Origin: a virus | DNA: 64,000 bases | Direction: 5' to 3' (one strand) | IMG/VR virus record: IMGVR_UViG_3300020034_000007 | Location: 11,924-75,923 of that record | Shown: positions 8,354-60,345 of the stretch, piece after piece | Numbering within the stretch: position 1 is the stretch's first letter | Layout of the letters: each line of letters opens with the position of its first letter | Notes under the pieces: generated by a model | Database searches by the model: none | What the model was told of the DNA's origin: nothing | Seen by the model: the letters and a program-made list of their open reading frames with translations, nothing else | Program-made: the position numbers and the translations under genes

Positions 8354-8400
8354 ATTAACCCCAGGCAGGCTAGCCGGTATTTAGCCTGCCTGGGGTTAAT
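8354..8400. terminator. 19-bp perfect inverted repeat after the major tail gene
   Basis: attaaccccaggcaggcta / tagcctgcctggggttaat, 9-nt loop, 17 nt past the stop. Confidence 0.75.
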
Positions 8401-8417: not shown

Positions 8418-9446
8418 TTACGCGATGGTCGCGCGACCTGTTTTGGCAACGGAAGTCATGATCGGAGTAGCAGGCACAGGACGAATAGCCTGAATATCAA
8501 TACTCGGCTCGATGATATCGTCACCACTCGGACTGAAGTTATAAGGCTTCAGAATCGACTGAGGGATAGTAAAGGCAATCTGCTGGGCCGTCAACGGAGT
8601 ACCTGCGACAATGTTCTCATAAGTAGCAACGTTAATAACCAGAGCTTGCTTTGTCGGAATACCACCAGGCGCAGTAGCAGCAGCCGTACCATATACGGCC
8701 TGGCGCCACAGTGCACTATCCTGCTGGCGAATCGTAACGCTGGCCGTAACTTCACGACGCTTCGGGACAACACTTCCAAGGTAAAGACTACCCAGACGGA
8801 AGTCAGTATCATCGAAGTTATTGTTGATATCTAGGCTGAAAGACTTCGCCGGAAGAGTCACACCGTTGTAAGTCACTGTAACATTCGTACCGACGATCAT
8901 CGGCAGGCTGTCAAACAGTGCAGTCGGAGTATTCATGTCGGTTGGGGTAATACCCGCAACCTGCTTCAACGCGATGAGGCCAGCGGTACCCATAAGGTAA
9001 CCGTCAGCCGCAGCTTCCAGGTGAAGCGTATTGACGACTGTGTCCGTGTAGTCGAAGCACTCCAGACCGGCACCAATGAGCTCCTCGACCGAGTAATACG
9101 GAAGAGCGGCAGCATCGGAAGGTGTGATCGTATGAGTCGTAATACCCGTCGTGGTAACCTGAGCAGTCGTCCCCATGCAGGCATACAACAGAGATAGGAA
9201 CGACTCTATGCGGGCATAGAAGTCGTAGCTACCAGACCACTTAACGGGCCCCAGGTAGGAGTCCGTAATATCGCGACCGCCACCGATCTCGGGGTCTGGG
9301 ATCATAAGCGTTCGGTCGGTGCCAAGCGATCCACTGCGAAGCTTAATACCAATACCCGCAGTCGCAATGTCAGAAGCAAATGTCCCAAGGACAGACTGCT
9401 TGCGAAGCAGAATGTGGCCTGGCTGTGAAGAATACCCTGCCGCCAT
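8418..9446 (-). CDS. Major tail (tube) protein
   Basis: 342 aa, beta-rich tail-tube-like sequence; position upstream of the chaperones and followed by a terminator. Confidence 0.85.
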   Translation of the reverse strand: MAAGYSSQPGHILLRKQSVLGTFASDIATAGIGIKLRSGSLGTDRTLMIPDPEIGGGRDITDSYLGPVKWSGSYDFYARIESFLSLLYACMGTTAQVTTTGITTHTITPSDAAALPYYSVEELIGAGLECFDYTDTVVNTLHLEAAADGYLMGTAGLIALKQVAGITPTDMNTPTALFDSLPMIVGTNVTVTYNGVTLPAKSFSLDINNNFDDTDFRLGSLYLGSVVPKRREVTASVTIRQQDSALWRQAVYGTAAATAPGGIPTKQALVINVATYENIVAGTPLTAQQIAFTIPQSILKPYNFSPSGDDIIEPSIDIQAIRPVPATPIMTSVAKTGRATIA

Positions 9447-34907: not shown

Positions 34908-35956
34908 AATGGTGGCTATAGCCTGCCACACCACCCCCCACCCAGAATTTAGACATACCCCTCCAGTCGTACATACCCCCCCCTACACCTTGAATTCCAT
35001 CTGTCCGATTTATTACGAATTTCGTTTATTATCGGTTCAGAACGATGTCATACCACCCAGAACTACCCACATAGGATGCCGATAGGGTGGCCTACGGGTA
35101 CATACACCATCAGTCACCACATCAGTCATGCCACTACCCACCACATGCACCCCATTCAGAACGAATCACACTGAACTAGACATCACCTATCACCACCACA
35201 TACATGCATCAGAACGGGTGTGAATAGGCAAAGGTTACGAAGACCATGTTCCACACACACCCTAGACATCACATGCACACCCAGTCATATCCGTTCTTTG
35301 AATCATTCAAGAATCGATCAAATAGTATATTTAACGACTTAGTCAACGAGGTATCATTCTTTCAATTAACTAGACATACCTGCCTACTAACACGGACAAA
35401 CGACTTATACGTTCGTCTATATATCACGCCTAGATAACGGTCCAGTTTTCAATGGTAGATGTATACAGTCTAGCTCAAACACGGACAAAACTACACATAC
35501 TAACTACCACATATCCACCTATACCTACCCAATAGGCCTAGGCGCTAGCACTACACGCTAGGGTAGATTAGGCATCGCACCAATCGGAACGGGTTAGGCC
35601 ACAACACACTAGGCCTAGCTACTAGGGCCGAATGCGTGTACGTTCATTGCATACCTACATAGCGACACGGGATACGGCCATCACGCTAGGTGGCACGTAC
35701 CTATCCCATCCGCACACATAGGTGCGACCACGACTGATATGTCTGGCAATCCACCTATAGGCATGGCCGCCTAGCGATACGTAGATTCGGACTCGATCGC
35801 ACCTACGGGCTACCTACGCCACGCAATAGGAATAGGGATAGGCACACACACCCAGAAATTAGGGGTTGCCGAATTCTGGATCGCATGATAGGGTTGCACT
35901 AGCAACACGGACACCGACTCGGTCCTAGAAATCATAGGACTGGCCGTCCGGTAACA

Positions 35957-36066
35957 CGGGCACCGACTCAAACCCAGTACATATGGGTGCGACTTGCCCG
36001 GCACGCTAGACCGGCCCATCCCGGGCACCGACTCAAACCCAGTACATATGGGTGCGACTTGCCCGG
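35957..36066 (+). repeat. 45-bp perfect direct repeat x2, each self-folding
   Basis: cgggcaccgactcaaacccagtacatatgggtgcgacttgcccgg at 35957-36001 and 36022-36066. Confidence 0.95.
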
Positions 36067-36605
36067 GATGGTGCCGAAAACTAAATACGCCTCACAATGG
36101 ACTTACCCGGGGCGCAAAATGGGGTGAGTAGCGGCTGGAATCCACCATGGATGACTGCCCGAGTATTGCCAGAGTCCGGTATGCCGGACCGGTAGACGCT
36201 CGGAAAAGATCTGTGCAATGGCGCGCCGAAGACTGCGGAGAGTAACCAGACAGTGCGAACGTCCGATGTTATGTCCAGGCATACCTGGGAATTGGGCTAC
36301 TAGGCGAATGGCTAGGGGATGCAGGCTCACATGATCGGAAAGGCCGAAAAGCTAGAAACAAAGCGATTCGAACCCTCACCCCGGTCATATGAGCCTGATA
36401 CGCAGTCGAATGATCCACATCCAGCCTCATCAGGCCGTCATTCCAGGTATGTCCCTGGATAGCGTGATAGTGACTGGATGGGCAATTCAGGTGTTAATTA
36501 CCTGGGTCGCGCTCATTTGGACCAGACTTAGACGAGTTAGCTAGACCAGAACATCCCATAAGTTTGGGGATGTTCCTGTGATGCTAACTGACGGACAAAC
36601 TAAGA

Positions 36606-36634
36606 TTGACAAGTCCGTAGACAGCTGGTAAAAT
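36606..36634 (+). promoter_or_regulatory. sigma70-type early promoter
   Basis: TTGACA-17-TAAAAT with extended TG. Confidence 0.75.
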
Positions 36635-36672
36635 GAGCGCGTGCCCTGGTCATTCTCAAACCTGGGGAGATG

Positions 36673-36777
36673 ATGGCAATGACCTACACCCTACCCCACC
36701 AGACTCCGGTGAGTCGTCCTGTGGTTTCGGGCACACCCGACAAGCCAGCCGAGATTCGAAAGCTGGCCGCACGATGA
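36673..36777 (+). CDS. Small early protein (34 aa)
   Basis: ctggggag SD; coupled by ATGA to the next ORF. Confidence 0.45.
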   Translation: MAMTYTLPHQTPVSRPVVSGTPDKPAEIRKLAAR

Positions 36778-38943: not shown

Positions 38944-39117
38944 ATGCCCACCATGACGCGCACACGTGCACCTAGGTACAAGGTGAAGAAGACTCACAGT
39001 ACCGGGACGATGAAGAAGCTCATGCGACAGGGCTGGACTCTTGAATCATCCATACCTGTGACCTTCCTGGGTATGACGACAGGCTACAATTACATCCTCA
39101 AGAAGGAGAAGCTGTGA
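38944..39117 (+). CDS. Small protein (DUF4177-like)
   Basis: LMRQGWTLESS...YNYILKKEK; GTGA coupling to the next gene. Confidence 0.6.
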   Translation: MPTMTRTRAPRYKVKKTHSTGTMKKLMRQGWTLESSIPVTFLGMTTGYNYILKKEKL

Positions 39118-39527
39118 CCGGCACCCCGTCTCGTAAGTCCCGACGCTTGGCCCGCCAGAAGTACAAAATCCGCAAGCAGTGCCAGGGTCAAACCCGTGGA
39201 CAGGTAGCGAAAGCGCTCAGGATGGTGACGCCACGCAAGCACCGGGCTGGTGCTGCCAGGCTATCAGCAGGAAACCAAATGCGCGGGCCACAGGATGCGG
39301 CCGAGCAGCTGCTGGCCGAGATCTTTGATCCGGCGTACCCGACAGGTCAGGCTGTACAACGCGGACCTCTAACGCCTGCGTACGAGATTGTCACAGTCAC
39401 GCCTTCGCGCCACGAGGTGCGACTCGGTGATCAGACGCTCAGCTGGCACCGTACCTTCGCCAAGGCCGACGAGGTGCGCGAGCGTAACGAGGAGCTCGAT
39501 GTCGAGGCGATGAGCCGGCGTGCCTGA
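39114..39527 (+). CDS. Hypothetical basic protein
   Basis: 137 aa, coupled start. Confidence 0.65.
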   Translation: MTGTPSRKSRRLARQKYKIRKQCQGQTRGQVAKALRMVTPRKHRAGAARLSAGNQMRGPQDAAEQLLAEIFDPAYPTGQAVQRGPLTPAYEIVTVTPSRHEVRLGDQTLSWHRTFAKADEVRERNEELDVEAMSRRA

Positions 39528-39940: not shown

Positions 39941-40846
39941 ATGGCGACGCGTTCAAAGGCCCCGGCTGCCAAGCCCGAGGCCACCCCGGCTCCCTCGACG
40001 GAGTCGAGCACCACCGAGACCAAGGCTCCGGCCGAGGCCCCGAACATCACAGCCCTGGTCGCTCTCGCGGAGGGTGTCGTCGCTCAGGACGAGACCAACC
40101 GTGACTTCACCGAGCTGACGAAGGCCTACCAGGATGCCGACCGGCGCCAGAAGGCGGCCTTCACCAAGCACATCAACGACGCAATGGTCGTTGCCCTGCA
40201 GGAGAAGCAGGATCGCAACCTGGCGCTGGCGTACGTGGCCATCGGTGGGGCTGTCAAGACGAAGCCAGCCACCGAGCGCAAGGCCCGCGAGCCTCGTCCC
40301 CCGGCGAATCCCACCGAGACTCTGGTGGATCGCCTGGCCGGTCTGTTCCTGGCCTACGAGACGGCGGCCGCGACCGACCTTCCCGAGAACCTCGACGCTG
40401 ACTGGGCTGACAAGCTCCAGGCGAAGCTCACCGAGGTGCGCAACAGCGGGGACATCGCGAAGCTGGTTGCCTACCGCAACAACGAGGCCGGAGACAAGGG
40501 CGAAGCGCCCGAGGTGTCCGAGGTCGCTGGTCGCGCGGTTCGCCTCGCGTTCCAGGGTGGCAAGACCAGGACCTCCAGTGGCGGCGGCGGGGGTGGACGT
40601 TCAGGTGCAGTCTACGACGGCCCGCGTCGGTCTGTCACGGTCCACATCCTGAACGCCTTCGAGGGCAAGCCGTCCGGTACGTTCCTGTCGGTCAGCGAGA
40701 TTCGCAACCACAAGAGCGCCGAGTACGGCGAGGATGCCCCCTCGGCCGGTGCAGTCAGCGCCGCGCTGAACGGGAAGTCGGTTCCGGATGCCCTGGTCGT
40801 CGGCAAGGGTGGAGAGAAGCAGACGTTCGGCGCCACACTCAAGTAA
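39941..40846 (+). CDS. High-GC putative DNA-binding protein with C-terminal winged helix
   Basis: 301 aa from ATG 39941 (SD ggagg); strongly GC3-biased codons; PSAGAVSAAL motif. Confidence 0.75.
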   Translation: MATRSKAPAAKPEATPAPSTESSTTETKAPAEAPNITALVALAEGVVAQDETNRDFTELTKAYQDADRRQKAAFTKHINDAMVVALQEKQDRNLALAYVAIGGAVKTKPATERKAREPRPPANPTETLVDRLAGLFLAYETAAATDLPENLDADWADKLQAKLTEVRNSGDIAKLVAYRNNEAGDKGEAPEVSEVAGRAVRLAFQGGKTRTSSGGGGGGRSGAVYDGPRRSVTVHILNAFEGKPSGTFLSVSEIRNHKSAEYGEDAPSAGAVSAALNGKSVPDALVVGKGGEKQTFGATLK

Positions 40847-40858
40847 CCAGTAAGGTCT

Positions 40859-40908
40859 GAGTTGACAACGTCGGTTATTCGTGATTGGATGACCGACGTT
40901 GTTAGCTT
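40859..40908 (+). terminator. Long GU-containing hairpin after the high-GC gene
   Basis: gagttgacaacgtcggtta / tgaccgacgttgttagctt. Confidence 0.6.
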
Positions 40909-40957
40909 CGGCTGGCAACCAAGAGCGGACCTTGACAACTTCATGTGTGAGCGTCGT

Positions 40958-41183
40958 GGCTAGTCACCCTTATCTCCCCCGAGTGAGAGTGACTAGCCTC
41001 AATGTTACACAGACTGGCTCAGTCGCCGATAAGTCCTAGGCTTGCTCGCCGGGATACGTACAGTCCTTTCCGTATCTGTGTCGCGAACATAGGCGGCTGA
41101 GTTAGAAACTTACCCAGGTACTCACATCCTATTGCCTAATATGCAGTCGGTCCAGCCGGTCCAGCCGGTGAGTACCTGGGTAA
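40958..41183 (+). ncRNA. Candidate structured RNA(s), hairpin series
   Basis: Stems 40958-67/40989-98, 41014-27/41092-105 (GU pairs) and 41110-25/41168-83. Confidence 0.4.
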
Positions 41184-41348
41184 CTAACGGCTCAGGACTC
41201 GATATACTGCAGGCCTCAAAACCTACAGGCATGCGAGATAGAGTACTACTACTAGGGCTAGGGCCTGAACGTAGAACGAAAACGTCCCCTAGGGCGCCTG
41301 GGCGTTACACTCGATCGAGGAGCCTGGCCGTTCTGTCCGATCGAGAGA

Positions 41349-41436
41349 CGTGCACATTCTGATAACGGCGAAGGTGTCTAATACACCCGTTGCGTACGGC
41401 GCCTAGAGAACAGCTGGTGCGAGTCCAGCGTGCACC
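41349..41436 (+). ncRNA. Atypical tRNA-like element
   Basis: T-arm gctgg-tgcgagt-ccagc and acceptor-like cgtgcac/gtgcacc, but no canonical anticodon arm. Confidence 0.35.
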
Positions 41437-41439
41437 TAA

Positions 41440-41512
41440 TCCCGGTTAGCTCAATAGGCAGAGCAGATGATTGTTAATCATCAGGTTCCTGGTTCGAGTC
41501 CAGGGCTGGGAG
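41440..41512 (+). tRNA. tRNA-Asn(GTT)
   Basis: Full cloverleaf: tcccggt/gctggga, D gctc/gagc, anticodon gatga-ttGTTaa-tcatc, T cctgg-ttcgagt-ccagg; CCA not encoded. Confidence 0.95.
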
Positions 41513-41519
41513 CGCTACA

Positions 41520-42250
41520 CATCCAGGCATGCTAGCTAAGTCCTGGTGAGGCCGGTGGGAAATGAGGGTAGGCATACCGACTCCCCCGCTGAGCCTGCAG
41601 AGTAATCGGGCTGCAGGAGGGTTGACCCGCAAGGGCAGCCGCCCCGGTCAAGGTCGGGGATGCAATACGACGAGGCAGTCACAATAGGTCCACATCCTGA
41701 ATTGTGCCGTCGTTACTGATCCTAAGATGTGGTATAAAGTTGCGTAGGGCTGGTCTGAATCAGTAAGCCTTGTATCAGTACAAGGAATTCAGACCAGCCC
41801 TACCAATTCCAGCTACTAGCTGAAGCTGGATACCTGCGTTCTAACCCTATTTCCTCTGGAGTAGGCTTGGTCCGCTCGCGCGGGTATCCAGCTTCAGGTG
41901 GTAGCTGTTCTGCTTCCATCGAAATAACCACTGCATGTGCGAGGGTGTAACCTCGCTGGGTAGGTGGGTGGGCAGTCGTCCGTTGGGCTGGGAGCTTTTC
42001 CTGTAATGGGAACCAGTACCAGCTGCCCTGTGAAATGGCACGACGGGAGGTACAAATGCGCCTGCTCTGGAGGAGAAACAGAAACCGTAATGCTCGACAG
42101 CCGTGAGGCCTTGGGAGTGCTACGGTGGACCGGGTAAGCCCTGCGGGGAATCCCCTCTTTCTGGCGTAGGATCAAAAGCTCACGGACAGTGTAATCGCAA
42201 GTGCCGGTACCATGCCCGGCTGGCTTCCCGTCGTGTTCCCACGAATCAGT
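41520..42250 (+). ncRNA. Candidate large structured ncRNA downstream of tRNA-Asn
   Basis: Continuous stems including 17-bp and 15-bp perfect helices, GNRA loops and a long-range pair 42039-48/42226-35; no credible ORF. Confidence 0.5.
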
Positions 42251-42283
42251 CCGCTACAACAAGGAGAGAGTTAAGGAGCTATC

Positions 42284-42352
42284 ATGCCGAACCTGCTATA
42301 CGTTCTGGTATGCGTCTTGGTTATCGTTGTTATCCTAGTGATAGTCTTCTAA
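42284..42352 (+). CDS. 22-aa single-TM hydrophobic micropeptide
   Basis: MPNLLYVLVCVLVIVVILVIVF; strong SD taaggag with a second aaggag upstream. Confidence 0.65.
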   Translation: MPNLLYVLVCVLVIVVILVIVF

Positions 42353-42421
42353 GGTAAGCAGCAGAATCACAAATGCGCGCGTCACCCCGTGCGTCCAGAT
42401 GCTTGAAAGGATGGAGACACG

Positions 42422-42739
42422 GTGGCGTACGCACTACTCTGGTTCATTCCTCTATGTGAGATCTGGCTGGTTAAGCGTTATAAGCAATACCGCAAGGCTC
42501 GCCTGTTGCATGAGCTCGCTCGCGACAGACTCGAAGCTCTAGCCTGGTATAACTGGAAGTGCCGCTTCAGGCACGGCACAACAGTCTTTGAACAAGAGCA
42601 GACCGTAGACCTCAAGACTCGTGGCTATCTTCGTGCCCTGGATGGCCTACGCCGCAAACTCACTGCTGGTGAAATCACATCGCGTGAGTATAAGTTCCTG
42701 CGGCTGGATATCCTGAAGAGCCGGTCTGCCGCACGCTAA
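42422..42739 (+). CDS. Membrane-anchored hypothetical protein
   Basis: Hydrophobic N-terminus; SD ggaga. Confidence 0.6.
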   Translation: MAYALLWFIPLCEIWLVKRYKQYRKARLLHELARDRLEALAWYNWKCRFRHGTTVFEQEQTVDLKTRGYLRALDGLRRKLTAGEITSREYKFLRLDILKSRSAAR

Positions 42740-42760: not shown

Positions 42761-42789
42761 TTGACATGTAACTACTATGGTGCTATACT
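42761..42789 (+). promoter_or_regulatory. sigma70-type promoter
   Basis: TTGACA-17-TATACT, extended TG. Confidence 0.8.
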
Positions 42790-42817: not shown

Positions 42818-43279
42818 ATGACAGTCATGACATACCCTCGACGCGAATTACAACAGCTAGACGAGGCAATGCTGCTCTCTATACCTGAGGGTAGGTATGC
42901 CTGGCAGCCCGATTCGGAAACACCTCTGACGTTCATCTGGATCAGGGATTACACCTTCGGCAAGCGTCTCGGCTCGCGTCGCATACGCACCCAGCACGGG
43001 CCCTGGTTTGAGGATGCGCTCACTCGTCAGGTTAGCGGCAAAATCACTATCTGGGACAGCGAGATCGAGAACGTCCTAGTAGGTGTGTTCTGCGGTCGCA
43101 ACGAGGCTGCAATGAGATACGCCACCGAGCTAGGCAACTGTTGCCGCTGCAATGCCGACCTCACCCTGGAGCGTTCTAGATTCTACGGCATCGGCCCAGA
43201 GTGTGAGGAGCTCCGTCCTGACTACATGGACGATGTGATCCTCCTGAAGGGTACCTACGAGGAGAGTCTACAGTCATGA
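42818..43279 (+). CDS. DUF6011-domain protein
   Basis: CCRCNADLTLERSRFYGIGPEC. Confidence 0.8.
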   Translation: MTVMTYPRRELQQLDEAMLLSIPEGRYAWQPDSETPLTFIWIRDYTFGKRLGSRRIRTQHGPWFEDALTRQVSGKITIWDSEIENVLVGVFCGRNEAAMRYATELGNCCRCNADLTLERSRFYGIGPECEELRPDYMDDVILLKGTYEESLQS

Positions 43280-51678: not shown

Positions 51679-52140
51679 ATGAGCGTGAACCTTGCAGAGT
51701 ACAGCGTACTACAGAAGAAGAAGGTAACGATTCAGTACAACTCAAAGCCAGACAGCCAGGGTGCTGTTGAGCTTGTCGAGCTAGAGGGTACGCTCATGGC
51801 TGCCCAGCCTGGTATCGGAGTCATGTTCCGTCCGGCCCGCCACAACCAGGGCCAGCTCATTGACGAGGCTGACATTGTCGATATCATCTCGGCTCCGACC
51901 AAGCCTCGTGTTCTCAAGCAGAAGAATTTGCGCGTGATTGGCGCGGAGGACGTGCGCCATCATCTCGCGGATCGCCATGCGTACCCGTTGACCTGGGTTA
52001 ACCAGGCTACTCCGGAACAGGCGCTCGAGGCTCACTCTGGTATCGATCACACCGACCTTGGCCATAAGCACTCGGCTACCGAGACTGAAGCTGAGGTAGA
52101 GGTCGAGAACACCGAGACTGAGGTTACTGAAAGCGAGTAG
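51679..52140 (+). CDS. Actinophage-type hypothetical protein (His-rich motif)
   Basis: VRHHLADRH...H.GIDH.DLGHKH. Confidence 0.75.
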   Translation: MSVNLAEYSVLQKKKVTIQYNSKPDSQGAVELVELEGTLMAAQPGIGVMFRPARHNQGQLIDEADIVDIISAPTKPRVLKQKNLRVIGAEDVRHHLADRHAYPLTWVNQATPEQALEAHSGIDHTDLGHKHSATETEAEVEVENTETEVTESE

Positions 52141-52152
52141 CCACTGAAGCGT

Positions 52153-52197
52153 CGGACCAGCTACTAGCTCGCGATGGGTCTGGGAGTAGCTGGTCCG
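52153..52197. terminator. 13-bp inverted repeat
   Basis: cggaccagctact / agtagctggtccg. Confidence 0.7.
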
Positions 52198-58177: not shown

Positions 58178-58217
58178 AACCCCCGACAGTAGCCCTGGTA
58201 ACTAACTGTCGGGGGTT
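58178..58217. terminator. Bidirectional hairpin between convergent genes
   Basis: aacccccgacagt / actgtcgggggtt. Confidence 0.75.
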
Positions 58218-58234: not shown

Positions 58235-58522
58235 TTAGACCTGCTCGCGAACGTCACCAGCCGTGACCGAGATGGTAGCCACTCCACCAGCCACCACATC
58301 GATCGCCTCGGTAACAGACAGGCCACTAGCGGCCTCACTGAAGGTAACGACGGCCGATCCCGGGTTGCCAGCAACCGCAGTGAAGGTGTCACCGGCCTGG
58401 GTAACCGTCACTACCGTCTCGTCAGACGACGTAGCGCTGAACGCTTCGCCGTCGACATCGAAACCCTTGGCATCCTTGCCAGCGAGGGTGTAGTCGACTT
58501 CCTGGGTGTCAGAGAGCTGCAT
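58235..58522 (-). CDS. Small Ig-like (Big_2-type) protein, lone antisense gene
   Basis: MQLSDTQEV...SSDETVVTV...GSAVVT...IDVVAG; SD gaagga; GC3-rich codons. Confidence 0.75.
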   Translation of the reverse strand: MQLSDTQEVDYTLAGKDAKGFDVDGEAFSATSSDETVVTVTQAGDTFTAVAGNPGSAVVTFSEAASGLSVTEAIDVVAGGVATISVTAGDVREQV

Positions 58523-59067
58523 TTCCGTTCCTTCCGGTTGGCGAGGTGATACTGAGTGATCACTCTGTTCGCGGACAAGCCCGGCGCGTAGACGAACATA
58601 GGCGCTTGATGTTCCCTCGAGAAATGTTGCCACCAGGTCGGCATCTACGAGGATCATTGCGATTGATTCGTTACGCTTCCAGAACTCGTTCTGCTCTATA
58701 ACGAATCGCAGAGCATCTTCACGAATACTTGTCACGCCTGGTAGCATAGCATGACTTGATGATCATGGGTCTCCTGTCCGAAATCGCCCGAATTTGCCGA
58801 TGGGCTTGCATCGTTACATATAGGTGCGGTAGGTTGACCGACAACACGAAGGGGGGTGCATCATGACTGGCTTTGATTAAACGCCCTTAATGGGCACGCG
58901 TGATAGCTTCAGTGAGGTATCTGCTATCCGCACTTTAATGAGATTGTTTATTAGATTTGAACGGAGTCGGATCAGGTGGAGAACATCCGAAGAGGGTGTT
59001 TCTGCGAAGCCCCGACCAGTAGGTCCGATAGGTCTAAGATAACCGCACAAGTCCAAGGAGTATAAAG

Positions 59068-60279
59068 ATGACTGTTGCTGTACCAGATTCATCAGGCGCC
59101 CTCGAACGGTACGGAGAGTACGAGGGACTGGGCCTGGAGGACGTTAAGGTCAGTGACCTTTCCGTCCCGCGCCTGAGCATCGTCAGTAAGACAGCCAAGA
59201 TCCAACATTCCGTTACCAAGGCTGAGTACGATTACCTCTACGTGATCATGCTGGCTCAGGTCAAGCAGCGGATCATGTGGCACAAGGATGTCGATGATAA
59301 CTACAAGTCTCCGCAGTGTAAGTCTACAGACTTCGATCATGGCTTTCCGAACGTTGATCCCAAGGCTCCTCCGAGTCGTCTCTTTCCGTGGGCTGAATCG
59401 AATTTCGATCCCGCCGCTGGGCCTCAGGGTCTCTACTTGCCTGAACTTTCCGAAGAGGCTGGTACACCTGCCCTTCCATGCGAGTCCTGCAAGTTTAAGG
59501 AGTGGAAGGACGGAAAGACTCAGTGCAAGGAGCAGCACTCGTATCCGCTACTCTGGGTTGATCCCGAGGATAACTCGTACAACCCTGCAATCCTCACGAT
59601 TCAGGGCTCGGGTATCAAGAATAGTCGGCAGTACGTGCAGACGTTTGCGACCAAGCGTAAGCCACTGTTTACTGCACTCACGCTGATTCAGTTGACTGCA
59701 GCTCGAAAGGGTAGCAACGACTACGCTATCCCAAACTTCACAAACGCTCAGGATACTGATCCCGCGTTGTTCGATGAGTACGCCGCTCAGACACGATCCA
59801 TGCGTGAATTCCTGCGCAAGCCTCCGCGTCGTCGGGAGGATGACTCAAACGATAGTGCTATCACTCCGGCACCTGCGGGCAACGTTAACGTTGCTCCCGT
59901 GGTGGTAGAGGTACCGGTTGCGTCTCAGGTTATTGCGCCTGTAGCACCCGTGGTACCCACTCCTGCTCCTCCGGTAGCTCCAGCTCCACCAGCTCCGCCA
60001 GTCGCTCCTGTTCCGGTGGCTACTTCCCCGGCTCCCGGCCCAGTAGCCCCTCCGGTTCCGCCGTCTGCACCTCCAGTTGCGGCACCAGCGCCCGCTCCTG
60101 TTCCTGCGGTCGCGCCTGTTCCACCGCCTCCCCCGGCACCGGTAGCTGCACCTGCTGTTGCACCTGCAGCTACCGTGCCGGTACCCCCGCCGCCGCCCGT
60201 GCCTCAGTCTGCAGTGCCTGCTGCGACTGTGCAACCAGCACCCCCGGCGGCACCTGGCAGTAACGACCTTCCGTTCTAG
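59068..60279 (+). CDS. SSB-like/ssDNA-binding protein with Cys motifs and a Pro/Ala-rich tail ending NDLPF
   Basis: LSVPRLSIV...CKSTD...CESC...CKEQ; C-terminal tip like the SSB DDIPF motif. Confidence 0.6.
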   Translation: MTVAVPDSSGALERYGEYEGLGLEDVKVSDLSVPRLSIVSKTAKIQHSVTKAEYDYLYVIMLAQVKQRIMWHKDVDDNYKSPQCKSTDFDHGFPNVDPKAPPSRLFPWAESNFDPAAGPQGLYLPELSEEAGTPALPCESCKFKEWKDGKTQCKEQHSYPLLWVDPEDNSYNPAILTIQGSGIKNSRQYVQTFATKRKPLFTALTLIQLTAARKGSNDYAIPNFTNAQDTDPALFDEYAAQTRSMREFLRKPPRRREDDSNDSAITPAPAGNVNVAPVVVEVPVASQVIAPVAPVVPTPAPPVAPAPPAPPVAPVPVATSPAPGPVAPPVPPSAPPVAAPAPAPVPAVAPVPPPPPAPVAAPAVAPAATVPVPPPPPVPQSAVPAATVQPAPPAAPGSNDLPF

Positions 60280-60298: not shown

Positions 60299-60345
60299 GA
60301 CAAGGCCCAGAGTTCGCATGGTGAGGGTGGACTCTGGGCCTTGTC
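60299..60345. terminator. 15-bp inverted repeat
   Basis: gacaaggcccagagt / actctgggccttgtc. Confidence 0.7.

What the first reader, a model, noticed from the sequence alone, without database searches (positions are those of the whole stretch)
41520..42250. Candidate ~700-nt highly structured ncRNA next to a phage tRNA
Seen: near-continuous base pairing. There is a multibranch 41550-41649 (ggccgg/ccggtc closing three hairpins with GGCA/GCAA loops, and alternative pairing with 41655-41659). There are also a 17-bp helix 41744-41803, a 15-bp helix 41820-41897 within cagctac/gtagctg, and a long-range helix 42039-42048/42226-42235 enclosing ~180 nt. No credible ORF is present. Established: giant ncRNAs such as GOLLD and ROOL occur beside tRNA genes in phages. 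Inference: a new large RNA class or an RNA cluster in an actinophage. I could not match it to a known family.
Basis: partly seen in the sequence, partly recalled or inferred. Interest (0 to 1): 0.75.

Follow-up and report, generated by a model that had tools for sequence, protein, structure and literature searches.

The report
Hairpin-rich noncoding tRNA island in phage
The flagged stretch is part of a 1.4-kb gene-free, fast-changing "tRNA island" in an uncultured actinophage; its only beyond-chance folds are a few separate long hairpins like the terminator-like hairpins elsewhere in this phage, and nothing supports one giant new RNA.

Summary
The window is an 81-kb IMG/VR phage, distant kin of Gordonia Montyvirus, ReqiDocB7, TIN2 and Perlina. 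The finding lies in an ORF-free stretch, 40847-42283, that holds tRNA-Asn (41440-41513).

Only two exceed chance: the hairpins at 41744-41803 (17 perfect bp) and 41810-41907 (15 perfect bp inside 29-nt arms). The multibranch (z -0.46) and the 3' domain (z -1.56) fold no better than shuffles, and a 10-bp long-range helix turns up in about 12% of shuffles.

Rfam gives only the tRNA, even at E<=10. No coding signal and no gene remnant was found.

Long perfect hairpins are common in this phage's intergenic DNA, mostly just after stop codons. All nine lineages examined carry an unrelated long hairpin just after the upstream gene.

The locus is a variable tRNA island:
- Perlina has three tRNAs there.
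- Another relative has tRNA-Val plus a tmRNA-like stub.
- Chelms has only 94 nt.

The two partial close relatives show a 245-nt indel and loss of the micropeptide gene. A ~115-nt module upstream of the tRNA (41190-41304) does show five compensatory pairs.

Verdict: a modular hairpin and tRNA island. A single giant RNA is unsupported, and small RNA modules remain possible.

The parts
39941..40846 (+). Upstream flanking gene (PHROG 6708, function unknown); it anchors the synteny with relatives
   Evidence: (gene called as 301 aa)
40859..40908 (+). Long hairpin 13 nt after the stop codon. It has 23 pairs, 6 of them G-U on the + strand. Likely terminator or 3'-end hairpin of the upstream gene.
   Evidence: It is 92% identical in L008, with one compensatory and two one-sided changes. 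z is -4.2 on + against -1.9 on -. All 9 lineages have an unrelated long hairpin at this position.
40945..41186 (+). ~245-nt segment absent from the closest relative L008. It carries the hairpins 40957-41000 and 41110-41183 (16 perfect bp) and a 23-nt motif (41024-41046) shared with L022-L024.
41190..41304 (+). Conserved ~115-nt three-helix module: a closing helix plus two hairpins. It is the only part of the island with covariation support.
   Evidence: Window against L008: 21 of 21 pairs kept, 5 changed on both sides, at most 1 in the slid controls. A covariance model of it finds no further copies.
41440..41513 (+). tRNA-Asn (GTT)
   Evidence: ARAGORN; Rfam RF00005, 59.6 bits; 86% identical to the Perlina tRNA-Asn at the same locus
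41550..41659 (+).
   Evidence: z -0.46, 70 of 200 shuffles fold as well; the closing helix is not in the MFE
41668..41714 (+). Imperfect hairpin
   Evidence: the 41680 window: z -3.2 on + and -5.8 on -
41744..41803 (+). Perfect 17-bp stem with a nested 7-bp hairpin
   Evidence: z -7.3; never seen in shuffles
41810..41907 (+). Compound hairpin with 29-nt arms. Two of its three mismatches are G-U on the + strand. It is followed by TTCTGCTT and is a candidate terminator of the tRNA unit.
   Evidence: (-64.8 kcal/mol on + against -50.8 on -; z -8.4)
42039..42235 (+). ~197-nt domain closed by the 10-bp helix 42039-42048/42226-42235; not beyond chance
   Evidence: z -1.56; a helix of 10 bp or more occurs 0.12 times per shuffle
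42200..42219 (+). 20-nt block AGTGCCGGTACCATGCCCGG (a small CCGG/CCGG hairpin). It is identical in the partial relative L020, where the surrounding sequence is about 70% identical.
   Evidence: absent from viral contigs and genome contigs
42284..42352 (+). 22-aa all-hydrophobic micropeptide ORF with an AAGGAG Shine-Dalgarno sequence; absent from L020
42354..42381 (+). 29-nt piece 97% identical to the interior of an L008 gene whose true ortholog is window 39114-39527; it marks a mosaic junction
42761..42789 (+). Consensus promoter TTGACA-17-TATACT (with TG) ahead of the DUF6011 gene; conserved in L020

Best explanation
The flagged 730 nt is the downstream two-thirds of a 1,437-nt ORF-free 'tRNA island' (40847-42283). 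The island lies inside the rightward early gene arm of an uncultured actinophage.

The island is a patchwork of these parts:
- a terminator-like hairpin right after the upstream gene;
- a lineage-specific insert with two more hairpins;
- a small conserved structured module;
- tRNA-Asn;
- about 230 nt of unremarkable spacer;
- three consecutive stem-loops (41668-41907);
- about 375 nt of spacer that ends at the ribosome-binding site of a 22-aa membrane micropeptide.

The long stem-loops act as separate RNA-level elements on the + strand. Most likely they are factor-independent terminators, or 3'-end and processing hairpins, that bound the tRNA transcription unit and protect transcripts. That is what the same kind of hairpin appears to do after many other genes in this phage. 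They are not helices of one large folded RNA. The island grows and shrinks by insertion, deletion and recombination between related phages.

Shown here: the anatomy, the statistics, the positional conservation of the first hairpin, the plasticity of the locus, and the lack of any family match. Inferred: that the region is transcribed on the + strand, and that the hairpins terminate or process RNA.
For: 1. Structure beyond chance is confined to discrete hairpins. The multibranch and the 3' domain are at chance level.
2. Long perfect hairpins of 13-19 bp with 9-26-nt loops occur at about ten other intergenic sites in the window. Several lie 13-20 nt after a stop codon on the coding strand: 8354-8400, 52153-52197, 60299-60345 and 58178-58217.
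3. In all nine lineages examined, the upstream gene is followed within about 60 nt by a long hairpin of unrelated sequence. The lineages are the window, L008, L009, L010, L022, Perlina, ReqiDocB7, TIN2 and Chelms.
4. G-U pairs favour the + strand: 40859-40908 has six, and 41810-41907 has two of its three mismatches as G-U.
5. 41810-41907 is followed by TTCTGCTT.
6. The noncoding gap after the upstream gene varies widely:
   - Chelms, 94 nt;
   - L009, 291 nt;
   - ReqiDocB7 and TIN2, about 450 nt;
   - L010, 580 nt;
   - Perlina, 748 nt with tRNA-Asn, tRNA-Met and tRNA-Ile;
   - L022, about 1.1 kb with tRNA-Val and a tmRNA-like stub;
   - the window, 1,437 nt.
7. Close partial relatives show modular indels. 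L008 lacks 40945-41186. L020 lacks the micropeptide gene. A 29-nt foreign gene fragment sits at 42354-42381. Two other assemblies both break at 42190.
8. The other long noncoding stretch of this phage (35200-36770) folds even better, z -6.6 and -8.9, so strong folding is a property of its intergenic DNA in general.
9. There is no Rfam family other than tRNA even at E<=10.
Against: - There are no transcript data.
- Most of these hairpins lack a U-tract, and the simple terminator scan found none of them. Calling them terminators rests on position and on my background knowledge that actinobacterial terminators often lack U-tails.
- Five strong hairpins in 1.4 kb with no genes between them is more than simple termination needs.
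- The first hairpin is more conserved between the window and L008 (92%, loop included) than the adjacent coding sequence (74%). That hints at a sequence-specific role.
- About 600 nt of the flagged region (41514-41667 and 41908-42283) is left without any assigned role.
- No homolog covers 41365-42125, so conservation or covariation there could not be tested either way.
Confidence: 0.55

Rival explanations
1. The island is an operon of several small structured noncoding RNAs. They would be co-transcribed with tRNA-Asn and cut out by the tRNA-processing enzymes RNase P, Z, E or III. This would resemble the stable RNAs in the phage T4 tRNA cluster. The hairpins and the 41190-41304 module would be separate functional RNAs of unknown role.
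For: - The module 41190-41304 keeps 21 of 21 pairs against L008, 5 of them through changes on both sides. The slid controls give at most 1.
- At the same locus L022 carries an 80-nt tmRNA-like tRNA-like domain (RF00023, 38 bits, E 2e-13) next to tRNA-Val.
- Perlina has three tRNAs with structured spacers.
- A 20-nt block (42200-42219) is identical in L020, where the surrounding sequence is about 70% identical.
- G-U asymmetry favours + strand RNA.
Against: - The covariation rests on two sequences and lies outside the flagged coordinates.
- The covariance model of the module finds no copy in any other relative.
- Modules are gained and lost between close relatives.
- The flagged modules, apart from the two hairpins, fold no better than shuffles.
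- There are no expression data.
Confidence: 0.22
2. One reading: 41520-42250 is a single new large 'ornate' RNA of the GOLLD/ROOL kind.
For: - It is ORF-free, sits beside a phage tRNA, and gives an overall z of -4.7.
- GOLLD and ROOL share that genomic context (PMC5737381).
- The absence of a known-family match is compatible with novelty.
Against: - The overall z-score comes from two hairpins.
- The multistem junction and the long-range helix are chance-level.
- No homolog was found in the phage records, IMG/VR, JGI metagenome contigs or GTDB genomes.
- Assemblies break inside the stretch at 42190, and L020 shares only its last ~75 nt.
- Perfect 15-17-bp stems are unlike the short, covarying helices of ornate RNAs. 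This last point is my background knowledge.
Confidence: 0.07
3. The 3' third (about 42039-42283) is the structured 5' leader of the 22-aa hydrophobic micropeptide mRNA. It would act as a type I toxin-like or exclusion-peptide module whose translation is gated by the long-range helix.
For: - There is a strong AAGGAG Shine-Dalgarno sequence and a purely transmembrane 22-aa ORF.
- A 10-bp helix plus G-U extensions closes a 197-nt domain that ends 48 nt before the start codon.
- L022 also has a small transmembrane peptide ORF in its island.
Against: - The domain's stability is z -1.56 and the helix is chance-level.
- L020 keeps the 3' strand region but has no micropeptide gene.
- The helix does not sequester the Shine-Dalgarno sequence.
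- No antisense promoter was found.
Confidence: 0.08
4. The palindromes act at the DNA level. They could be cruciform or protein-binding sites of an origin, recombination hot spots, or relics of small mobile palindromic elements.
For: - Three stems (41110-41183, 41744-41803 and the core of 41810-41907) are perfect Watson-Crick duplexes and fold equally well on both strands.
- The 245-nt insert relative to L008 is bounded by hairpins.
- There are junction signs at 42190 and at 42354-42381.
Against: - None of the hairpins is repeated elsewhere in the 81-kb genome, or in the collections for the motifs tried.
- G-U asymmetry in two hairpins favours RNA.
- Similar hairpins follow stop codons genome-wide.
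Confidence: 0.08

Closest known systems
Phage tRNA gene clusters with structured spacers and associated stable RNAs (for example the phage T4 tRNA region with its species 1 and 2 RNAs; Rhodococcus phage Perlina tRNA-Asn/Met/Ile at the syntenic locus)
   Same: A noncoding stretch within an early operon holds tRNA(s) separated by hairpin-forming spacers. It sits at the same position, after the PHROG 6708 gene, as the Perlina tRNA cluster, and the tRNA-Asn genes are 86% identical.
   Different: There is only one tRNA in 1.4 kb. The spacers are much longer, with 15-17-bp perfect stems. No stable RNA product has been shown. The T4 comparison is from my own knowledge and was not tested.
Factor-independent (intrinsic) transcription terminators, including the U-tract-poor hairpin terminators described for Actinobacteria
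   Same: These are strong G+C-containing stem-loops just downstream of stop codons on the coding strand. Their position is conserved across nine lineages while their sequence is not. One is followed by a U-rich tail (41908-41915).
   Different: The stems are unusually long (13-23 bp) with large loops or nested hairpins. Most have no U-tract. Several stand in tandem with no gene in front of them. The consensus terminator scan did not call them.
GOLLD (RF01998) and ROOL (RF03087) large ornate RNAs
   Same: A large ORF-free region next to a tRNA in a phage genome (PMC5737381).
   Different: There is no covariance-model match even at E<=10. There are no conserved multistem junctions, no homologs, and the junction stability is at chance level.
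tmRNA and phage-borne tmRNA-like tRNA-like domains
   Same: A relative (L022) has an 80-nt acceptor-stem plus T-arm element at the same locus.
   Different: Nothing of the kind is detectable in the window itself. The L022 element scores below Rfam's gathering threshold and lacks the mRNA-like part.

Membership tests
GOLLD / ROOL / other Rfam large RNAs (OLE, HEARO, raiA) | Match to the family covariance model (sequence plus structure) | tested here: not met
   cmscan of the whole window at gathering thresholds, and of 40700-42500 at E<=10, found only tRNA; the other hits are chance miRNA-type hairpin matches at E>1
GOLLD / ROOL-like 'ornate large RNA' (as a kind) | Multistem junctions and long-range helices supported by covariation among homologs | tested here: inconclusive
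   No homolog covers 41365-42125. In the single sequence the junction and the long-range helix are at chance level.
GOLLD / ROOL-like 'ornate large RNA' (as a kind) | Genomic context near tRNAs or in phage | tested here: met
   tRNA-Asn at 41440-41513 in an 81-kb virus record; the context claim was checked in PMC5737381
Intrinsic terminator | Stable stem-loop shortly downstream of a stop codon, on the transcribed strand | tested here: met
   40859-40908 begins 13 nt after the stop codon. The position is conserved in 9 lineages. The + strand is favoured by G-U pairs. For 41744-41907 the 'gene' in front is the tRNA, about 230 nt upstream.
Intrinsic terminator | U-rich tract immediately 3' of the stem | tested here: not met
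   Only 41810-41907 has 5 T in the next 10 nt. 40860-40907 and 41744-41803 have 2, and 41668-41714 has 3. The consensus scan calls none of them.
Intrinsic terminator | RNA 3' ends at the hairpin in vivo or in vitro | not testable with these tools
Phage tRNA gene island | Bona fide tRNA gene(s) in a noncoding block, at a locus where relatives also carry tRNAs | tested here: met
   tRNA-Asn; Perlina tRNA-Asn/Met/Ile and L022/L023 tRNA-Val after the same gene
Type I toxin-antitoxin (small hydrophobic toxin with a structured leader and an antisense RNA) | Antisense or overlapping sRNA gene, and a leader that occludes the ribosome-binding site | tested here: not met
   No antisense promoter was found. 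The predicted leader helix ends 48 nt before the ATG and leaves the Shine-Dalgarno sequence unpaired. Toxicity was not tested.

The most novel reading that the evidence does not exclude
The island is a phage operon of new small structured RNAs, made together with tRNA-Asn. It would include the covarying ~115-nt module at 41190-41304, the long hairpins as processed stable RNAs, and the conserved 42200-42219 element. Such RNAs could be decoys or guides acting on host RNases, the translation apparatus or defence systems. The same slot in related actinophages would be filled with different RNA cargo (tRNAs, a mini tmRNA-like domain), making it a swappable 'RNA cargo bay'.
Probability: 0.2. Interest if true: 0.55.

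Novelty: new member of a known kind. Interest (0 to 1): 0.3.

Why it matters
If the main reading holds, this is an ordinary though unusually long example of a phage tRNA island punctuated by terminator-like hairpins. Its value is mostly cautionary: a good whole-region folding z-score in roughly 55% G+C intergenic DNA can come from two hairpins, and the rest of the 'structure' is what shuffled sequence gives.

Three modest points of interest remain:
- This actinophage clade keeps a hyper-variable noncoding slot after one conserved gene. Different lineages fill it with different RNA genes: tRNA-Asn, tRNA-Asn/Met/Ile, or tRNA-Val plus a tmRNA-like stub.
- A small module shows compensatory changes.
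- Very long U-tract-less hairpins appear to serve as the phage's general gene-end signal. Testing that would add to what is known about termination in actinobacterial phages.

Tried and rejected
- Known RNA families: Rfam at gathering thresholds on the whole window and at E<=10 on 40700-42500 gave only tRNA.
- Phage records: megablast found no match, and blastn at distant sensitivity matched only the tRNA.
- Relatives by protein pattern in IMG/VR, using the upstream gene, the DUF6011 gene and the AAA ATPase: none.
- DNA motif scans of IMG/VR: four patterns, all empty.
- The single metagenome scan, with the conserved hairpin loop, returned 8 contigs that share only the 20-mer, so they are chance hits.
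- A genome-contig scan for the 20-nt conserved block was empty.
- Protein homolog searches of the two flanking genes and of the 105-aa ORF gave only two partial close relatives. L008 ends before the tRNA, and L020 starts at about 42127. The other copies of this phage are identical to the window.
- A covariance model of the 41187-41306 module, searched over the window and 11 loci, matched only its two training sequences.
- Hidden or decayed genes: PHROG scans of 10 small ORFs gave nothing significant. tblastn of the 93-aa antisense ORF against phage records found no match. tblastn of all syntenic small proteins of relatives against the island gave nothing below E 0.06. Codon-usage scoring showed no coding signal.
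- Decayed tRNAs in the flagged region: neither ARAGORN nor the Rfam tRNA and tmRNA models found any.
- Repeated or mobile hairpin family: there are no other copies in the 81-kb genome, and only one shared 13-mer among 17 hairpins.
- Sigma-70-type promoters inside the island: none at stringent settings.
- Earlier notes of this scan: no look-alike stretch in other windows.

Full report
**Context**

The window is bases 11924-75923 of an 80,908-bp IMG/VR virus record rated complete. Structural genes run leftward up to about 34.3 kb. Small early genes run rightward from about 36.6 kb.

The two genes that flank the finding both have their only cultured homologs in the same 97 actinophages. These genes are a PHROG 6708 protein (39941-40846) and a DUF6011 protein (42818-43279). 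The 97 phages are Gordonia Montyvirus-type phages, Tsukamurella TIN2-4, and Rhodococcus ReqiDocB7 and Perlina. Protein identity is 27-43%, and gene order is conserved up to an AAA ATPase and a CobT-like gene. Calling it an actinophage is therefore reasonable, but this phage is a distant and rare relative.

**Extent of the feature**

The ORF-free stretch is larger than the flagged one. It runs from the stop codon of the upstream gene (40846) to the start of a 22-aa hydrophobic micropeptide ORF with an AAGGAG ribosome-binding site (42284-42352). That is 1,437 nt, 40847-42283, with tRNA-Asn(GTT) at 41440-41513.

- Codon-usage log-odds in all six frames stay near or below zero across the stretch. 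Flanking genes score 0.1-0.35.
- No small ORF there has a strong Shine-Dalgarno sequence or a PHROG match.
- An independent assembly's gene caller called nothing there either.
- tblastn with every syntenic small protein of eight relatives found no gene remnant.

**Checking the observation**

All four named helices are present, but their statistical weight differs sharply.

- In 60 dinucleotide shuffles of 41514-42283, perfect helices of 12 bp or more never occurred. The 17-bp (41744-41760/41787-41803) and 15-bp (41820-41834/41883-41897) stems are therefore real signals.
- A helix of 10 bp or more occurred 0.12 times per shuffle, so the 'long-range helix' 42039-42048/42226-42235 is not significant on its own.
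- The whole 771 nt folds with z -4.68 on the + strand and -3.33 on the - strand.
- A 120-nt sliding scan puts the entire excess at 41680-41920, with z -3 to -8.4. Everything from 41520 to 41680 and from 41920 to 42280 lies between z -1.7 and +1.4.
- Folded alone, the 'multibranch' region has z -0.46, and 70 of 200 shuffles fold as well. Its proposed closing helix is in neither the MFE nor the centroid.
- The 3' domain has z -1.56, and 41908-42245 has z -0.36.

So 'near-continuous base pairing' is mostly what 55% G+C sequence gives by chance. Upstream of the tRNA, outside the flagged range, there are three more significant hairpins: 40859-40908, 40957-41000 and 41110-41183.

**Known families**

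Rfam 15 gives only the tRNA, both at gathering thresholds over the whole window and at E<=10 over 40700-42500. There is no GOLLD, ROOL, OLE, HEARO, raiA, tmRNA, intron or ribozyme model.

**The hairpins are a genome-wide habit of this phage**

An inverted-repeat scan of the whole window lists about a dozen further long stems of 13-19 bp, mostly perfect, with 9-26-nt loops. Nearly all are intergenic.

Several start 13-20 nt after a stop codon on the coding strand:
- 8354-8400, after the gene 8418-9446 on the - strand;
- 52153-52197, after 51679-52140;
- 60299-60345, after 59068-60279;
- 58178-58217, after 58235-58747 on the - strand.

Like the hairpins in the island, most lack a U-tract.

In all nine lineages for which I could read the sequence, the PHROG 6708 gene is followed within about 60 nt by a 12-23-bp hairpin of unrelated sequence. 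The lineages are the window, L008, L009, L010, L022, Perlina, ReqiDocB7, TIN2 and Chelms. Conserved position without conserved sequence is what a terminator or 3'-end stabiliser looks like.

Two of the island's hairpins are clearly better on the + strand because of G-U pairs. 40859-40908 has six G-U pairs (z -4.2 against -1.9). 41810-41907 gives -64.8 against -50.8 kcal/mol. This argues for an RNA-level role in the sense direction. 41810-41907 is followed by TTCTGCTT.

In 771-nt tiles, the phage's other long noncoding stretch (35200-36770) reaches z -6.6 and -8.9. That is stronger than the finding (-5.1 in the same test). Coding tiles range from +0.6 to -3.7. Strong folding is thus a property of this phage's intergenic DNA and not a mark of this locus.

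**The locus is a variable tRNA island**

The gap after the PHROG 6708 gene differs greatly between lineages:
- Chelms: 94 nt.
- L009: 291 nt.
- ReqiDocB7 and TIN2: about 440-455 nt.
- L010: 580 nt.
- Perlina: 748 nt with tRNA-Asn, tRNA-Met and tRNA-Ile, and spacers that fold into closed hairpin domains. Its tRNA-Asn is 86% identical to the window's.
- L022/L023: about 1.1 kb. This holds tRNA-Val behind its own TTGACA-17-TATAAA promoter, a 45-aa membrane peptide ORF, and an 80-nt tmRNA-like tRNA-like domain (RF00023, 38 bits, below the gathering score).

None of these shares sequence with 41514-42283.

**The closest relatives are partial, and they show modularity**

L008 is a 2.7-kb Logan contig whose flanking protein is 60% identical. 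It aligns to 40859-40944 and to 41187-41363, lacks 40945-41186, and ends before the tRNA.

L020 is a 1.3-kb ENA contig whose DUF6011 protein is 56% identical. It aligns only from about 42127 onward. It has a 20-nt identical block at 42200-42219 and no micropeptide gene.

A 29-nt piece just after the micropeptide (42354-42381) is 97% identical to the interior of an L008 gene. The true ortholog of that gene in this phage is 39114-39527, and the ortholog is less similar at that spot. This looks like a scar of recombination between related phages.

Two contigs from other assemblies (L011 and L026) are identical to the window and both begin exactly at 42190. That suggests co-occurring strains diverge upstream of that point. 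Whether the two assemblies are independent is unknown.

**One module with covariation**

Within the part shared with L008, RNAalifold proposes a ~115-nt fold at 41190-41304: a 7-bp closing helix and two hairpins. All 21 pairs are kept in both sequences. Five pairs changed on both sides, three of them in one 6-bp helix. Partner-slid controls give 0-1 such pairs and 29-55% pairing.

Two sequences are few, and the structure was derived from them, so this is suggestive only. A covariance model built from it found no other copy in the window or in 11 related loci. The module lies upstream of the tRNA, outside the flagged coordinates.

**Interpretation**

The best-supported reading (about 0.55) is a patchwork island: gene-end hairpin, lineage-specific insert, small conserved module, tRNA-Asn, spacer, three tandem stem-loops that most likely terminate or process the tRNA transcript, then spacer leading to the micropeptide gene.

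No sigma-70-type promoter was found inside the island at stringent settings. Good ones lie at 36606, 38383 and 42761. The tRNA is therefore probably made by read-through or from a weak promoter.

The rivals are:
- a cluster of small functional RNAs (0.22);
- a single ornate large RNA (0.07);
- a structured leader of the micropeptide (0.08);
- DNA-level palindromes (0.08).

**Novelty and score**

The hairpins and the tRNA island are real, but they belong to known kinds: phage tRNA clusters with structured spacers, and U-tract-poor hairpin terminators. The specific claim of a new ~700-nt RNA class has no positive support beyond what two hairpins and chance folding give.

It cannot be fully excluded, because no homolog covers its core. 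Earlier notes of this scan on enterobacterial phages also resolved 'giant RNA next to tRNAs' into strings of small elements, some of them tmRNA-like. I did not test those notes. They parallel what I saw in L022 but are not independent evidence.

Interest is 0.3.

Noticed in passing
window 35200-36770: The ORF-poor start of the rightward arm folds even more strongly than the finding. In 771-nt tiles it gives z -6.6 and -8.9. It contains two exact 45-nt direct repeats (35957-36001 and 36022-36066), each itself a hairpin.
   Followed up: no
L022 1106-1185 (also present in L023 and L024): An 80-nt tmRNA-like tRNA-like domain: acceptor stem plus T-arm, with no mRNA-like part. It scores 38 bits against RF00023 (gathering 47), E 2e-13. 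It lies next to tRNA-Val and a 45-aa membrane peptide ORF, at the locus syntenic to the finding, in a distantly related uncultured phage.
   Followed up: partly
window 42284-42352: A 22-aa purely hydrophobic micropeptide ORF with a strong AAGGAG Shine-Dalgarno sequence. It is identical in three other assemblies of the same phage and absent from the partial relative L020.
   Followed up: partly
window 42354-42381 against L008 1107-1135: A 29-nt fragment 97% identical to the interior of an L008-type gene. It sits 3 kb from the window's own ortholog (39114-39527), which is less similar at that spot. This looks like a scar of recombination between related phages.
   Followed up: partly
window 42190: Contigs from two other assemblies (JGI 3300020027 and ENA ERZ27268082) are identical to the window and both start exactly at this base. 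This suggests a strain-variable junction inside the flagged region.
   Followed up: no
window 41024-41046; L022 1194-1216; L023 424-446; L024 188-210: The motif GCCGAYAAGTCCTAGGCTT is shared between the islands of phages whose flanking proteins are only about 37-43% identical. It is absent from IMG/VR. Its meaning is unknown.
   Followed up: partly
window 42761-42789 and L020 about 343-371: A perfect TTGACA-17-TATACT promoter with an upstream TG lies just ahead of the DUF6011 gene, and it is conserved in L020. The TTG-started 172-aa ORF call therefore overlaps a promoter, and the real gene likely starts at 42818.
   Followed up: partly
window 41221-41240 and 41519-41538: The motif CAGGCATGC(G/T)AG occurs once in the conserved module upstream of the tRNA, where L008 also has it, and again immediately after the tRNA 3' end.
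   Followed up: no
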